Source: Limosilactobacillus gorillae (lineage in GTDB: Bacteria > Verrucomicrobiota > Kiritimatiellia > RFP12 > UBA1067). Taken from it: 52,419 nucleotides of DNA. The notes below the pieces were generated by a model. It had not been told where the DNA came from. It was given only the letters and a program-made list of their open reading frames with translations, and did not search any database. The position numbers were made by a program, and so were the translations under genes. Of the stretch, positions 10,629 to 45,632 are shown piece after piece. Numbering within the stretch: position 1 is the stretch's first letter; every line of letters begins with the position of its first letter. The stretch lies in NCBI GenBank assembly GCA_963653155.1, contig CAVJWR010000002.1, positions 1 to 52,419 on the forward strand. Reading direction: 5' to 3'.

Positions 10629-10697
10629 GGACGCAATGAATTGCGTCCCTCCCGTCGAAGCGGCCAGTATACGGGAGGGTCGCAACTTGTTGCGACC
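10629..10697. repeat. REPIN-like double hairpin (family 2, divergent copy)
   Basis: ggacgcaatgaattgcgtcc-CTCCC-19 nt-GGGAG-ggtcgcaacttgttgcgacc. It has the same hairpin-CTCCC...GGGAG-hairpin layout as 22005-22118 and 45413-45522 but with different, internally compensated stem sequences. Confidence 0.6.
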
Positions 10698-21994: not shown

Positions 21995-22840
21995 CTAATG
22001 TAAGTGCAAAACCTTCGCGATTGTGGACGGAACAAGCCCGTCCCTCCCAAAAACGGCGAATCTTGGCAGTTTTGTGAAGATGCGGGAGGGACACGCTTGT
22101 CGTGTCCGAGGTTTTGCAATTGCCTCACACTGTATTGGCAATGCCACATCAGGCTCAAGCCGCTTACTCTTGCTATGGGACATAGTTGCGTGAGGTCGGC
22201 TTCGTTTCTTCTCGATTTTCTTCCGATCCACTACCGTCAGCTCAATCTGCCTGAATTTCGGATTCTCATAGAATACCGTTACCGCTGGGAACTGCGTTCC
22301 GAACTCGGAGTTGGCGCATCGAGCGATGCCAGACGCATCAAATTCAAACAACTGGAAGACCCAATGGTTGTGATCGCTCTTTTCGAACTTCTCGAAGAAG
22401 CTCGACAGGCGAAAATACGTCTTCCCTCCGACTTTTATCAGGTCAGACAGCTCTGCGCCATAACCACTGAAAACATTTTCCTTCCGTCCGCCCTTCCCGT
22501 CCGAGACAATGAAGTGGATAGTGTATCCGTCCGCATTCAGTCCGCAACCCATCCATGGAACGATGAACACGAAGTCTTCGACGCCATCGCCATTCAAGTC
22601 CAATCCTCCGCCTTCAGAATAGGATACACCACTTGGTTCCTCTTTCTCCAATGCGGTGACAAAGATACTCACGCTTTTCGACGGCAGCTTCCTGACAACC
22701 GCCGGCGTTGACTTGAACTCTGGCGCCCACTTTTCCATCCAAGCCTGCGCACATGGCGAGGCAAGAAGCACCGAAACCAGCAATCCACGCCCAAAACTCG
22801 CGAAATGGCCACGAGACCTATCGCTTTTCTCTTGCATCAT
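21995..22840 (-). CDS. Hypothetical secreted protein with an FG-GAP/calcium-loop-like DLNGDGVEDF motif; the C-terminus is encoded by a repeat element
   Basis: 281-aa ORF with AGGAGAAA as RBS and a signal-like N-terminus (GRGLLVSVLLASPCAQA). The last approximately 40-58 codons run through the palindromic repeat at 22005-22118. Confidence 0.55.
   Translation of the reverse strand: MMQEKSDRSRGHFASFGRGLLVSVLLASPCAQAWMEKWAPEFKSTPAVVRKLPSKSVSIFVTALEKEEPSGVSYSEGGGLDLNGDGVEDFVFIVPWMGCGLNADGYTIHFIVSDGKGGRKENVFSGYGAELSDLIKVGGKTYFRLSSFFEKFEKSDHNHWVFQLFEFDASGIARCANSEFGTQFPAVTVFYENPKFRQIELTVVDRKKIEKKRSRPHATMSHSKSKRLEPDVALPIQCEAIAKPRTRQACPSRIFTKLPRFAVFGRDGLVPSTIAKVLHLH
22005..22118. repeat. REPIN-like palindromic element, family 2, copy A
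   Basis: tgcaaaacc...ggacggaacaagcccgtcc-CTCCC-35 nt-GGGAG-ggacacgcttgtcgtgtcc...ggttttgca. It is about 80-90 percent identical by eye to the inverted copy at 45413-45522. Confidence 0.7.
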
Positions 22841-23126: not shown

Positions 23127-23230
23127 TTGTCGAGCTATTCTGCGAAAGGCACATCGCTGGGCATGCGCCAGTCTCCGCGCGGAGAAAGGTTTATGCTTCC
23201 AATCTTGGGTCCGCCGTCAGTCTGCTGACA
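23127..23230 (-). pseudogene. Relic 3' end of a nadE (NAD+ synthase) gene
   Basis: The minus strand translates to ..[27 protein letters not shown]-stop (stop at 23135-23137). The real NadE C-terminus is ..[26 protein letters not shown]-stop at 41419. The DNA match continues 8 nt past the stop (ttgtcgag vs ttgccgag). Confidence 0.7.
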
Positions 23231-41376: not shown

Positions 41377-41418
41377 GCGAAAATAAGGAGGCTACGGCTT
41401 GCTACAGTCGTTGCCGAG

Positions 41419-43368
41419 TTATTCTGCGAAATGCACGTCACTTGGCATGCGCCAGTCTCCACGCGGAGAAAGGTTTATGCTTCCGACTTTTGGTCCGTCA
41501 GGCATACAGCTGCGTTTGAACTGCTGAGCATAGAACCGCCTGAAGAACTCATCTAACCATCGCCCTATCGTGGAAGGATCATAGATCCCGGAGAATGCGA
41601 TCTCTGCCAAACGGCGTATCTTTTCCTTCCCCGCCCCTCTTCGCAAGAAATTGTACAGGAAGAAATCATGCAGCTCATATGGCCCTACCTTTGCCTCCGT
41701 CTCCTGGGATATTGAGCCATCCGGATTCGCGGGCAGCAACTCAGGCGAAACTGGTGTTGCAAGTATGTCGATGAGCGCCTTGGAGGCCAATTGCGGATCT
41801 GTAGATGCGAATTTGCCATCACCTTTTGCAAGACGCGATTGGGCATACCATTCGACTATATACCTCACCAAGGTCTTCGGCACTCCGGAATTCACTCCAT
41901 ACATGCTCATGTGGTCGCCATTGTAGGTACACCACCCAAGAGCCAGTTCCGAAAGGTCGCCAGTCCCGATCACGATTCCATTGAGCTGATTGGCCAAGTC
42001 CATGAGCAAATACGTGCGACCTCGCGCCTGTGCATTCTCATACGTGACATCATGGATCGACTCGTCGTGATTGACGTCTTTCAGGTGCTGGCGAGCCATA
42101 GGCCCTATGCCTATCTCCCGAAGCGGCACACCAAGACCTTCGCAAAGGCGCTCGGCGTTAGATTTAGTCCGCACCGTAGTCCCAAATCCCGGCATGGTGA
42201 ACGCATGGACGCCGTCTCGCCTCAGTCCAAGCCGATCAAACGCCTCGACACACACGATGAGAGCAAGGGCACTGTCAAGGCCACCCGAAAGGCCAAGCAC
42301 AACATCCTTGCACCTGATCGCCTCAAGACGTGTCGCAAGTCCCGTAGACTGTATGGCCAGAATCTCCTCGCAACGCGCATCACGGTCGGCCCGCGCGTCC
42401 GGCACAAACGGATGCGGATCAACATGGCGCAGAAGCGCATCTGAAATCCAGTCCTCTTTTCCGCACGGCATCTGAACCCTGACCGTTCGCACATCGTCCA
42501 CAGTACGGGCGGCATTGCGAAACGCGTAGTTCGCCGACCGCTCGAAATTGAGAAATCCAACATCAACATCTGCAACAGTCATTTGAGCCTTGCGCTCAAA
42601 GCGCCGCCCTTCGGCGAGCAATGTGCCATTTTCGGCAATCATCGAATGTCCACCAAAAACAAGATCGGTAGTGGACTCGCCGACCCCGGCTCCGGCATAC
42701 ACATAGGCGGAAAGGCATCTAGCGGATTGTCCGAGGACGAGCGAACGACGATATTCCGTCTTGCCGACAAGCTCGTTCGAGGCACTGAGGTTCAGGATCA
42801 CGTTTGCCCCACGCAAGGAGAGTCGTGTGGAGGGCGGGTTCGCCGTCCACATGTCCTCACACAGCTCAACGCCGATGGCTGCACCGCCATCAAGGTCAAA
42901 CACGAGATCGTTGCCGAACGGCACCCGCATACCCGCCAACTCGATTTCGTCCTCCGTCGCCTCCAGTGCACTCGCGAACCAGCGCGACTCGTAGAACTCG
43001 TGCGTACTGGGCAGATAGGTCTTGGGCACAACGCCAACGAGGCGGCGTCCAGCGATCACGGCGGCACAGTTGAAGATGCGCCCACCCACGCGCACGGGGA
43101 GGCCGACTGCGACGAGGCCGTCACCGCAGTCCGGGATCAAGTCCGCGAGCGCCCGCTCAGCCGACTCAAGGAGATATGGCTGATAAAACAGATCCGCACA
43201 AGTATATCCAGTTAGGCACAATTCAGGAAACACGGCAACTTTGACGTTCCGCTCCGATGCCTCCCGCAGGACACTGCGTATGGCGGCAAGGTTTGCGCCG
43301 GCATCCGCCGGACGCACCACCGGCACAGCCGCCGCGACGCGCATGAACTCTATCTGACTACTTTTCAT
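41419..43368 (-). CDS. nadE: Glutamine-dependent NAD+ synthetase (nitrilase-like + NAD synthase domains)
   Basis: The N-terminal CN-hydrolase domain (VAVFPELCLTGYTCADLF; ELCEDMW) and the C-terminal ATP-PPase motif LGLSGGLDS. The start is probably MKSSQIEFMRVAAA (43368). Confidence 0.93.
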   Translation of the reverse strand: MKSSQIEFMRVAAAVPVVRPADAGANLAAIRSVLREASERNVKVAVFPELCLTGYTCADLFYQPYLLESAERALADLIPDCGDGLVAVGLPVRVGGRIFNCAAVIAGRRLVGVVPKTYLPSTHEFYESRWFASALEATEDEIELAGMRVPFGNDLVFDLDGGAAIGVELCEDMWTANPPSTRLSLRGANVILNLSASNELVGKTEYRRSLVLGQSARCLSAYVYAGAGVGESTTDLVFGGHSMIAENGTLLAEGRRFERKAQMTVADVDVGFLNFERSANYAFRNAARTVDDVRTVRVQMPCGKEDWISDALLRHVDPHPFVPDARADRDARCEEILAIQSTGLATRLEAIRCKDVVLGLSGGLDSALALIVCVEAFDRLGLRRDGVHAFTMPGFGTTVRTKSNAERLCEGLGVPLREIGIGPMARQHLKDVNHDESIHDVTYENAQARGRTYLLMDLANQLNGIVIGTGDLSELALGWCTYNGDHMSMYGVNSGVPKTLVRYIVEWYAQSRLAKGDGKFASTDPQLASKALIDILATPVSPELLPANPDGSISQETEAKVGPYELHDFFLYNFLRRGAGKEKIRRLAEIAFSGIYDPSTIGRWLDEFFRRFYAQQFKRSCMPDGPKVGSINLSPRGDWRMPSDVHFAE

Positions 43369-45388: not shown

Positions 45389-45412
45389 TATAATGTAAAA
45401 CAATCTGGGGAC

Positions 45413-45522
45413 AGCAAACTCCAGACGCGACAAGCGCGTCCCTCCCATATCTTTGCAAAGGCAAAAATTCGCCGTTTTCGGGAGGGACGGGCTTGTCCCG
45501 TCCGCAATCACAAAAGTTTTGT
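45413..45522. repeat. REPIN-like palindromic element, family 2, copy B (inverted relative to copy A)
   Basis: agacgcgacaagcgcgtcc-CTCCC-33 nt-GGGAG-ggacgggcttgtcccgtcc. The spacer attcgccgtttt is the reverse complement of aaaacggcgaat in copy A. Confidence 0.7.
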
Positions 45523-45600
45523 AAGTGCCATGCGGCGATTTCATCGAAATCGCCCTACCAAGCCCACGTACAATCCCTAAATGGTTCAATGCCTAAATGC

Positions 45601-45624
45601 AATCGTAAATCGCAAATCGTAAAT
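45601..45624. repeat. 7-bp tandem repeat (aatcgta/aatcgca/aatcgta) just downstream of the RND gene stop
   Basis: aatcgtaaatcgcaaatcgtaaat, preceded by a duplicated cctaaatg (45576, 45592). Confidence 0.4.
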
Positions 45625-45632
45625 TCAACCTC

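What the first reader, a model, noticed from the sequence alone, without database searches (positions are those of the whole stretch)
22005..22118. REPIN-like 110-114 bp palindromic element present in two inverted, closely similar copies (22005-22118 and 45413-45522)
Each copy has the layout outer inverted repeat (tgcaaaacc / ggttttgca), hairpin 1 (ggacggaACAAGcccgtcc), CTCCC, a spacer of about 34 nt, GGGAG, then hairpin 2 (ggacacgCTTGTcgtgtcc). The second copy is the reverse complement: its spacer attcgccgtttt corresponds to aaaacggcgaat. By eye the two are about 80-90 percent identical across the element. Two inverted REP-like hairpins around a short spacer is the REPIN architecture that RAYT (TnpA-REP) transposases mobilise in proteobacteria. 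No RAYT gene is in this window.
Basis: partly seen in the sequence, partly recalled or inferred. Interest (0 to 1): 0.6.

Follow-up and report, generated by a model that had tools for sequence, protein, structure and literature searches.

The report
IS-derived MITE carrying two REP hairpins
The two inverted copies are decayed copies of a roughly 130-base miniature transposable element whose ends come from an IS5/IS1182-type insertion sequence and whose interior is a pair of REP hairpins; the genome does encode a REP-type tyrosine transposase for that hairpin family, so this is a new variant of two known kinds of bacterial repeat.

Summary
Window 22005-22118 and 45413-45522 are reverse-complement copies, 81% identical. 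They belong to a family with 4 full and about 8 partial copies in this rumen Kiritimatiellae genome and at least 14 in a sister species.

The REPIN reading is half right. The two hairpins are genuine REPs. About 150 hairpins genome-wide carry an unpaired 5' GGGAG tag, against 0 for permuted tags. A divergent RAYT gene on contig C19 is flanked by these hairpins and interrupted by them in frame. Its orthologues across the PVC group are flanked by GGGAG-, NGGAG- or GTAG-tagged hairpins, depending on how distant the protein is.

The unit itself is not bounded by REPs. It runs about 128-131 nt between 17-nt terminal inverted repeats, GAGGCARTTGCAAAACC and GGTTTTGCAAYTGCCTC. These are the ends of a 1.62-1.66 kb IS with a DUF772 plus DDE transposase. 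The same ends enclose other cargo in other genera. 10 of 23 copies have exact 4-bp target duplications.

So the unit spread as a MITE, moved by a DDE transposase, with a REP dimer as cargo. This genome has no cognate DDE gene, and the window copies are relics.

The parts
21997..22126 (.). Copy 1 of the element, whole unit (130 nt) from outer end to outer end of the terminal inverted repeats
   Evidence: Column conservation across 17 copies rises at the left repeat and falls after the right repeat.
21997..22013 (+). Left terminal inverted repeat, decayed (AATGTAAGTGCAAAACC, 12 of 17 positions match the consensus GAGGCARTTGCAAAACC)
22025..22048 (-). REP 1: on the minus strand, the GGGAG tag followed by hairpin GGACGGGCTTGTTCCGTCC
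22049..22083 (.). 35-nt spacer, conserved between copies (consensus GAAAACGGCGAATCTTTGCGGTTTTGCGAAGATAC)
22084..22107 (+). REP 2: GGGAG tag followed by hairpin GGACACGCTTGTCGTGTCC. The stem covaries between copies.
22110..22126 (+). Right terminal inverted repeat GGTTTTGCAATTGCCTC, identical (17 of 17) to the right end of the internally deleted IS copy in G131 (locus L200)
45406..45531 (.). Copy 2, whole unit, in reverse-complement orientation. Both terminal repeats are decayed.
45423..45446 (-). REP of copy 2 (tag CTCCC at 45442-45446 on the plus strand; one stem mismatch)
45480..45503 (+). REP of copy 2: GGGAG followed by GGACGGGCTTGTCCCGTCC
10629..10697 (.). Another dimer of the same GGGAG-tagged REP superfamily in the window. 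Tags face inward, the spacer is 19 nt, and there are no IS-type ends.
21995..22840 (-). ORF that reads through copy 1. Homologues align only to residues 20-216, so the last 60 or so residues, about 45 of them encoded by the element, are a non-conserved extension.

Best explanation
[quoted passage not shown] Its 17-nt ends are the terminal inverted repeats of a 1.62-1.66 kb IS5/IS1182-like insertion sequence. Its interior is a dimer of two REP hairpins with their GGGAG tags facing inward (a 'TT dimer' in the terms of Di Nocera et al. 2013) around a conserved 35-nt spacer.

What is shown: the ends equal the IS ends; unit boundaries lie at those ends; copies have 4-bp target duplications; sister species differ in presence and absence; the REP tag and stem design belong to a superfamily of about 150 copies that flanks a RAYT-type HUH/Y1 gene here and in many relatives.

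What is inferred: the whole unit was spread by the IS's DDE transposase supplied in trans. The REP cargo came from the GGAG-tagged REP/RAYT system, and either that system or selection for self-folding hairpins keeps it conserved.

In this genome no cognate DDE transposase is present. Copies are 68-81% alike and their ends and duplications have decayed. The two window copies are therefore most likely immobile relics. Their remaining effects are structural: a hairpin-forming insert at a gene's 3' end, which lengthens one ORF, and an insert in the spacer upstream of the P-II/amtB genes.
For: The family and its boundaries are shown.

The terminal repeat is found in 63 of 121 genomes of the taxonomic family, with at most one control match in any genome. 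The same ends enclose four kinds of cargo: GGGAG REP dimers (G000, G007, G080, G055), TGGAG REP dimers (G067, G073), GTAG REP pairs (G117, G014) and non-REP palindromes (G109, G088).

The ends bound IS copies in other genomes. One is a 1.2-kb internally deleted copy (L200). Full copies of 1,619-1,663 bp are L209, L214, L215, L208 and L207. They encode a 371-385 aa protein with DUF772 plus DDE_Tnp_1, and the best NCBIfam matches are IS1182 and IS5.

Target duplications: 10 of 23 TIR-bounded copies have exact 4-bp duplications, where about 0.1 is expected by chance. These include REP-carrying copies in G007 (TATT, ATTG) and all five sampled in G067/G073.

G007 copies correspond to empty or differently filled sites in G000, for example C22:23114|23115. 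The site of window copy 2 holds other REPs in G007.

REP identity: 150 hairpins with an exact GGGAG tag against 0 for permuted tags; 38% lie deep inside long open frames against 90% of random positions; the RAYT is on C19; its orthologues are flanked by the same tag.

Covariation supports each REP folding on its own (8 double changes, 0 of 500 shuffles reach this). It does not support the long inter-arm hairpin.

No cognate DDE gene is found in G000.
Against: The two window copies themselves show no recognisable 4-bp duplication, and one end of each has decayed.

The cleanest empty-site comparison, G007 C58 against G000 C22, shows no duplication. Only 1 of 5 full-length IS copies shows one.

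G000, G007 and G009 carry the element but no cognate DDE transposase was found in their assemblies. These are 85-94% complete fragmented MAGs, so mobilisation in this genus is inferred from relatives.

The REP hairpins are more conserved (90-100% per column) than the ends (70-80%). A pure MITE model does not explain that.

REP-plus-spacer modules also occur without the IS ends (C93, C22), so the REP part has dynamics of its own.
Confidence: 0.7

Rival explanations
1. It is a true REPIN. The whole doublet, including its outer inverted repeat, is copied by the GGAG-type RAYT on C19. The similarity of its ends to an IS arose because a REPIN landed in, or captured, a MITE shell once. After that the RAYT drove all spread.
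For: It has two inverted REPs around a spacer conserved between copies. A RAYT flanked by REPs with the same tag is present as a single copy. The REP hairpins are the best-conserved part. The cognate DDE gene is missing from all three genomes of the genus that hold the GGGAG version. The single-stranded unit folds well, z = -4.7 to -5.9.
Against: Similarity between copies ends exactly at the IS-type ends, not at the REPs. REP-carrying copies have 4-bp target duplications, which HUH/Y1 transposition (IS200/IS605 type) does not make (the mechanism is from established knowledge of that family). The RAYT loci lack these ends. The same ends carry non-REP cargo elsewhere. The exact 'cttgt' stems of the element do not flank this genome's RAYT. 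The C19-type RAYT was not found in G007, which has the most copies.
Confidence: 0.15
2. It is a host-function palindrome: a protein-binding site, an mRNA-stabilising hairpin or a transcription barrier. Under this view selection maintains its copy number and it is not currently mobile.
For: It lies between genes. Hairpin stems are kept paired by compensatory changes.
Against: Sister species differ in presence and absence at orthologous sites, and the same site is filled with different repeats. There is no terminator-like tail. Copy 1 is read through by an ORF. Copies are only 68-86% alike, with no fixed position relative to genes.
Confidence: 0.07
3. It is a fragment or gene of a conserved structured RNA.
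For: It folds stably, and one hairpin shows covariation.
Against: No Rfam family reaches its threshold anywhere in the window. Both orientations occur. The copies are dispersed, with unrelated flanks and insertion polymorphism. The long fold has no covariation support.
Confidence: 0.03

Closest known systems
REPINs / REP dimers with RAYT (Bertels & Rainey 2011, PMC3116915; Nunvar et al. 2010, PMC2817692; Di Nocera et al. 2013, PMC3733652)
   Same: It has two short GC-rich hairpins in inverted orientation around a spacer, each with an unpaired conserved tag immediately 5' of the stem. There are about 150 mostly extragenic copies. A single-copy HUH/Y1 gene is flanked by the same hairpins. Most copies form dimers with the tags outward and short spacers (44 pairs).
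   Different: The tag is GGAG/GGGAG instead of GTAG; PMC3733652 does not contain 'GGAG' at all. This particular dimer sits inside IS-type terminal repeats with 4-bp target duplications, so the unit was most likely not moved by the RAYT. The RAYT scores below NCBIfam's own cut-off (67 against 80 bits) and carries REPs in frame inside its coding sequence.
Bacterial MITEs derived from DDE insertion sequences (such as RUP, Correia/NEMIS and ERIC, as summarised in PMC3733652)
   Same: It is 70-300 bp with no coding capacity. Its 17-nt terminal inverted repeats are identical to those of a full-length IS found in related genomes. It has short target duplications, insertion polymorphism and a long stem-loop fold.
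   Different: The interior is not a deleted remnant of the IS. It is a REP dimer belonging to a different (tyrosine) transposase system. The same shell holds different REP types, or other palindromes, in different genera.
[quoted passage not shown]
   Same: REP dimers are regularly enclosed by a conserved outer palindrome.
   Different: In those cases the outer palindromes were not traced to any transposon. Here the outer palindrome is identified as the ends of an IS5/IS1182-like element, and it also occurs without REPs.
E. coli BIME-1 / RIP elements (Y and Z1 REPs around the L linker)
   Same: It is an inverted pair of non-identical REPs around a conserved linker of about 33-35 nt.
   Different: No IHF-site match was tested or seen. 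The REP ends are IS-type repeats, the tag differs, and so does the phylum. This comparison rests on my own knowledge, not on a tool result.

Membership tests
REPIN | [quoted passage not shown] | tested here: met
   The hairpins at 22025-22048 (minus strand) and 22084-22107 (plus strand) have a 35-nt spacer. Copy 2 has the same layout.
REPIN | The REPs belong to the family that flanks a RAYT gene in the same genome | tested here: inconclusive
   This is met at the level of the tag and stem base: GGGAG plus GGAC/GGTC hairpins flank and interrupt the C19 gene. The element's own 'cttgt' stems do not flank this genome's RAYT. They do flank its orthologues in G106, G135 and G099.
REPIN | The doublet replicates as a unit whose limits are set by the REPs | tested here: not met
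   The unit does recur as a whole, but its limits are the IS-type terminal repeats, 10-20 nt outside the REPs, and it has 4-bp target duplications.
REPIN | Mobilised by the RAYT | not testable with these tools
   This needs biochemistry or strain-level insertion data.
RAYT (REP-associated tyrosine transposase), for the C19 gene | HUH motif and catalytic tyrosine of the Y1 fold, with similarity to TnpAREP | tested here: met
   The LPDHIHFF and WEYVRNNPV motifs are conserved in 16 orthologues. PDB 4ER8 matches at E 9.7e-7 over residues 15-132. NF047646 matches at E 2e-18 over the full model length, but at 66.8-68.5 bits, below the curated 80.
RAYT (REP-associated tyrosine transposase), for the C19 gene | Gene flanked by the REPs it is associated with; single copy | tested here: met
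   There are REPs at C19:24-48, 382-481 and 738-972. tblastn finds one full copy. Of the 25 genome-search loci scanned, 18 relatives' loci plus G000's own carry GGGAG- or TGGAG-tagged hairpins.
MITE of an IS5/IS1182-like IS | Terminal inverted repeats matching those of an autonomous IS | tested here: met
   GGTTTTGCAATTGCCTC at 22110-22126 equals the right end of L200. Full IS copies are bounded by GAGGCTCTTGCAAAACC and GGTTTTGCAAGAGCCTC.
MITE of an IS5/IS1182-like IS | Target-site duplication of fixed length | tested here: met
   10 of 23 TIR-bounded copies have an exact 4-bp duplication. The two window copies have none (decayed). 1 of 5 full IS copies has one.
MITE of an IS5/IS1182-like IS | Cognate transposase available in the same genome | tested here: not met
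   tblastn with two full transposases gives no hit at E <= 0.01 in G000. None is found in G007 or G009. It is present in G001 and G003 (same genus), G020, G014 and G015. The assemblies are incomplete.
MITE of an IS5/IS1182-like IS | Small, non-coding, with insertion polymorphism | tested here: met
   The units are 73-149 nt and occasionally up to 322 nt. Empty sites are shown.

The most novel reading that the evidence does not exclude
IS-derived MITE shells and RAYT-type REPs form two-enzyme chimeras. In this reading the REP dimers repeatedly colonise, or are kept homogeneous inside, the same IS5/IS1182-type shell in different Kiritimatiellae genera. The cargo is GGGAG, TGGAG or GTAG type depending on the genome, and in G067 it is identical to the REPs flanking the resident RAYT. 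This would let REPs hitch-hike on a DDE transposase. A second part of the reading concerns the RAYT clade. It recognises a GGAG tag instead of GTAG, and it tolerates arrays of its own REPs translated in frame in a surface loop. Six orthologues have inserts of 28-62 residues, all open.
Probability: 0.3. Interest if true: 0.65.

Novelty: new variant of a known kind. Interest (0 to 1): 0.45.

Why it matters
REP/RAYT systems have been characterised mainly in Proteobacteria, and the tag is reported as GTAG or CGTC. This case adds a PVC-group clade with three features:
- The tag has shifted to GGAG in step with the divergence of the transposase. That makes the tag-enzyme recognition question directly testable with natural variants.
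- The outer palindrome around a REP dimer can be traced to a specific IS. This offers a concrete origin for the 'REP dimers inside longer palindromes' that were noted earlier but left unexplained.
- The RAYT gene itself carries in-frame REPs.

For annotating rumen MAGs, it explains a class of contig breaks and spurious ORF extensions.

Tried and rejected
- Rfam over the whole window gave no match. The structured-RNA reading was dropped.
- Terminator and promoter scans of both loci found no terminator-like site.
- Pfam Y1_Tnp alone found only the C137 RAYT. That gene is flanked by a different, classical GT[AG]G-CGACGGCG REP family of about 28 copies. For a while this looked like evidence against a cognate RAYT. 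A weak hit in G020 led to the C19 gene.
- My first inspection of four empty-site comparisons for target duplications was equivocal: none, 5 bp, or an imperfect 8 bp. Only the systematic scan at the repeat ends showed the 4-bp rule.
- I looked for TIR pairs at IS-scale spacing. Most pairs are 72-132 bp apart. G133's roughly 180 hits lie at contig ends with varied interiors. The IS was finally found through one 1.2-kb pair in G131.
- The RAYT loci do not carry the IS-type ends, so the 'TIR-associated tyrosine transposase' idea was rejected.
- The long inter-arm hairpin has no covariation support.
- Two align_proteins calls failed on stop codons. The alignment was redone in Python.

Full report
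**1. The observation**

Reading the window confirms the layout at 22005-22118 and, as the reverse complement, at 45413-45522. blastn gives 81.5% identity over 108 nt, E = 7e-23 against the 3.2-Mb genome.

More copies exist in the same genome (G000, 183 contigs, 57.7% G+C). Full copies lie on C33 and C68 and a variant on C93. Half copies lie on C37, C12, C67, C4, C58 and C41. A sister species (G007) has at least 14 copies, and another relative (G009) has at least two near-full copies.

Aligned copies are 68-86% alike, mean 77%, both within and between genomes. The single strand folds far better than shuffles, z = -4.7 to -5.9 for the window copies.

**2. The hairpins are REPs of a large family with a GGGAG tag**

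A scan for GGGAG followed directly by a GG[ATG]C-based hairpin finds 150 sites, or 178 if one mismatch is allowed in the tag. Five permutations of the tag each find 0.
- Stems differ between subfamilies but stay paired. Examples are GGACGCAAT-tc-ATTGCGTCC, GGTCGCAAC-tt-GTTGCGACC and GGACGCGC-tccc-GCGCGTCC.
- The tag itself is unpaired.
- 44 adjacent pairs are dimers with the tags outward and 5-23 nt spacers (more in a few). 8 have the tags inward, as in the finding.
- Only 38% of hairpins lie deep inside a stop-free frame of at least 150 codons, against 90% of random positions. This is a crude proxy for an extragenic location.

A second, classical family, GT[AG]G-CGACGGCG..CGCCGTCG, has about 28 copies.

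**3. The genome does encode a matching RAYT**

The Pfam Y1_Tnp model finds one gene, on C137. It is flanked by the GTAG family, not the GGGAG family.

A weak hit in relative G020 lay between two GGGAG dimers. Used as a query, it found G000 C19:119-663 at 51% identity, E = 4e-52. That gene has these properties:
- It carries the HUH motif (LPDHIHFF) and the tyrosine motif (WEYVRNNPV).
- It matches NCBIfam REP_Tyr_transpos over the whole model at E 2e-18. The score, 67-68 bits, is below the curated 80.
- It matches the E. coli TnpAREP structure 4ER8 at E 1e-6.
- It is flanked by GGGAG hairpins at C19:24-48 and 738-972, and it contains three more at 382-481, in frame.

Orthologues occur in 50 of 121 genomes of the taxonomic family and widely in Kiritimatiellota, Verrucomicrobiota and Lentisphaerota.

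The tag tracks the divergence of the protein:

| Identity of orthologue to C19 | Tag on flanking hairpins |
|---|---|
| roughly 46-68% | GGGAG |
| mostly 32-45% | TGGAG, CGGAG or AGGAG (a few GGGAG) |
| mostly 30-35% | TGTAG |

This pattern fits the tag being what the enzyme recognises. That remains an inference.

Di Nocera et al. 2013 describe GTAG and CGTC tags, including GTAG repeats in PVC bacteria. Their paper never mentions GGAG.

**4. The unit is bounded by IS ends, not by REPs**

Conservation across copies begins at GAGGCAATTGCAAAACC and ends after GGTTTTGCAACTGCCTC.
- This 17-mer occurs in 63 of 121 family genomes, up to about 175 times in one genome. The reversed control gives at most one match in any genome.
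- Pairs of the motif are typically 72-132 nt apart.
- The interior varies. It is a GGGAG REP dimer in G000, G007, G080 and G055. It is a TGGAG REP dimer in G067 and G073, identical there to the REPs that flank the G067 RAYT. It is a pair of GTAG REPs in G117 and G014, and an unrelated palindrome in G109 and G088.
- The RAYT loci do not contain the motif.

One pair, 1.2 kb apart in G131, encloses an internally deleted transposase gene with DUF772 plus the C-terminal end of a DDE domain. Full copies of 1,619-1,663 bp, bounded by the same ends, occur in G015 (about 12 copies), G014, G035 and G039. They encode a 371-385 aa protein with DUF772 and DDE_Tnp_1, and the best NCBIfam matches are IS1182 and IS5, both below their cut-offs.

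At the outer ends of the repeats, 10 of 23 small elements have exact 4-bp direct repeats, where about 0.1 is expected. These include two REP-carrying copies in G007 and all five sampled in G067/G073. HUH/Y1 transposition of the IS200/IS605 type makes no duplication (established knowledge), whereas DDE elements do. So the unit spread as a MITE.

**5. Mobility and age**

Several G007 copies map to empty or differently filled sites in G000:

| G007 copy | Corresponding G000 site |
|---|---|
| C58 | C22:23114\|23115, a clean 133-bp difference |
| C2 | C13 |
| C61 | C66 |
| C3 | C1 |

The G000 C68 copy is orthologous to G007 C1:224191. It is only 77% identical there, while one flank is 95% identical.

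At the site of window copy 2, G007 has 355 bp of other REPs between conserved flanks. At copy 1, the neighbouring gene differs in the closest relatives.

G000 has no cognate DDE gene: tblastn gives no hit at E <= 0.01. None was found in G007 or G009. G001 and G003, in the same genus, have fragments. The window copies have decayed ends and no duplication. They are most likely relics.

**6. What is conserved inside**

The REP hairpins and tags are the most conserved columns (90-100%). The ends and the spacer are at 70-90%.
- Hairpin 2 shows compensatory changes: A-U, C-G and U-A at one pair, and G-C and A-U at another. That is 8 double-changed cells, and 0 of 500 shuffles reach the observed score.
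- The long pairing between the two arms gains nothing from these changes and is broken by them.

So each REP is kept as its own hairpin. A pure MITE model does not explain this. It points to continuing influence of the REP system, for example conversion from the large REP pool, or to selection for self-folding. This is inference.

**7. Local consequences**
- The ORF at 21995-22840 (minus strand) has no stop before it has read through the whole of copy 1. Homologues align only to residues 20-216. The last 60 or so residues are therefore a non-conserved extension, about 45 of them encoded by the element.
- Copy 2 lies between the 3' end of an RND transporter gene and the upstream region of the P-II/amtB genes.
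- Neither locus has a terminator-like site.
- No Rfam family matches.

**8. Verdict**

The REPIN/RAYT interpretation is half right. The hairpins are REPs with a resident RAYT, but the 130-nt unit is an IS5/IS1182-type MITE carrying a REP dimer. It is a new variant built from two known kinds of repeat. The most interesting by-products are the GGAG-tag RAYT clade and the in-frame REP arrays inside the RAYT gene.

**Limits**
- All genomes are fragmented MAGs, so absences are absences from assemblies.
- Related genomes are not independent samples.

Noticed in passing
G000 contig C19:119-663 (locus L033), outside the window; orthologues L104-L108: The RAYT-type gene carries arrays of its own REPs translated in frame in the loop between the HUH and tyrosine motifs. 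Six orthologues have inserts of about 28-62 residues at the same site, all open, while ten others have none. A partial duplicate of the insert plus the 3' part of the gene lies just downstream, at C19:792-944.
   Followed up: partly
window 45531-45626: Directly next to copy 2 lies another dispersed repeat of about 95 nt. It contains the hairpin GGCGATTTCATCGAAATCGCC. There are at least 15 copies in G000 (C49 three times, C88, C11, C31, C12, C66, C104 and others) and more in G007 and G009, at 75-90% identity. It was not classified.
   Followed up: no
window 23127-23213 and 41411-41497: An 87-nt stretch is repeated within the window at 87% identity. It is also present next to the orthologous regions in G007 and G009. 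It may belong to the CACGGAG-type palindrome family noted earlier by the scan.
   Followed up: no
G000 contig C137:387-1031 (locus L001), outside the window: This is a second, classical RAYT (Pfam Y1_Tnp E 2e-11). It is flanked by five copies of a GT[AG]G-tagged hairpin, GCGACGGCG..CGCCGTCGC, which has about 28 copies genome-wide and often lies next to GGGAG REPs in mixed clusters.
   Followed up: partly
window 21995-22840, minus strand: This ORF has no stop codon until it has read through the whole of copy 1. Homologues in G014, G032 and G003 end their similarity at about residue 211-216 of 281.
   Followed up: yes
G007:C61:9900-10470 (locus L092): Inside one shell the REP-plus-spacer module is amplified three times in tandem, with hybrid hairpins GGGAGGGAC-GGGCTT-GTCCCTCCC in which the tag pairs with its complement. 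This suggests recombination between the two REPs.
   Followed up: no
G133 (same taxonomic family), many contig ends: About 180 matches to the IS end lie some 35 nt from contig ends, with varied interiors. This element family is a major cause of assembly breaks in that MAG.
   Followed up: partly
G000 C68:9603-9726 compared with G007 C1:224191-224301: These orthologous copies of the element are only 77% identical, while one adjoining flank is 95% identical. The element changes much faster than its surroundings, or it is overwritten.
   Followed up: no
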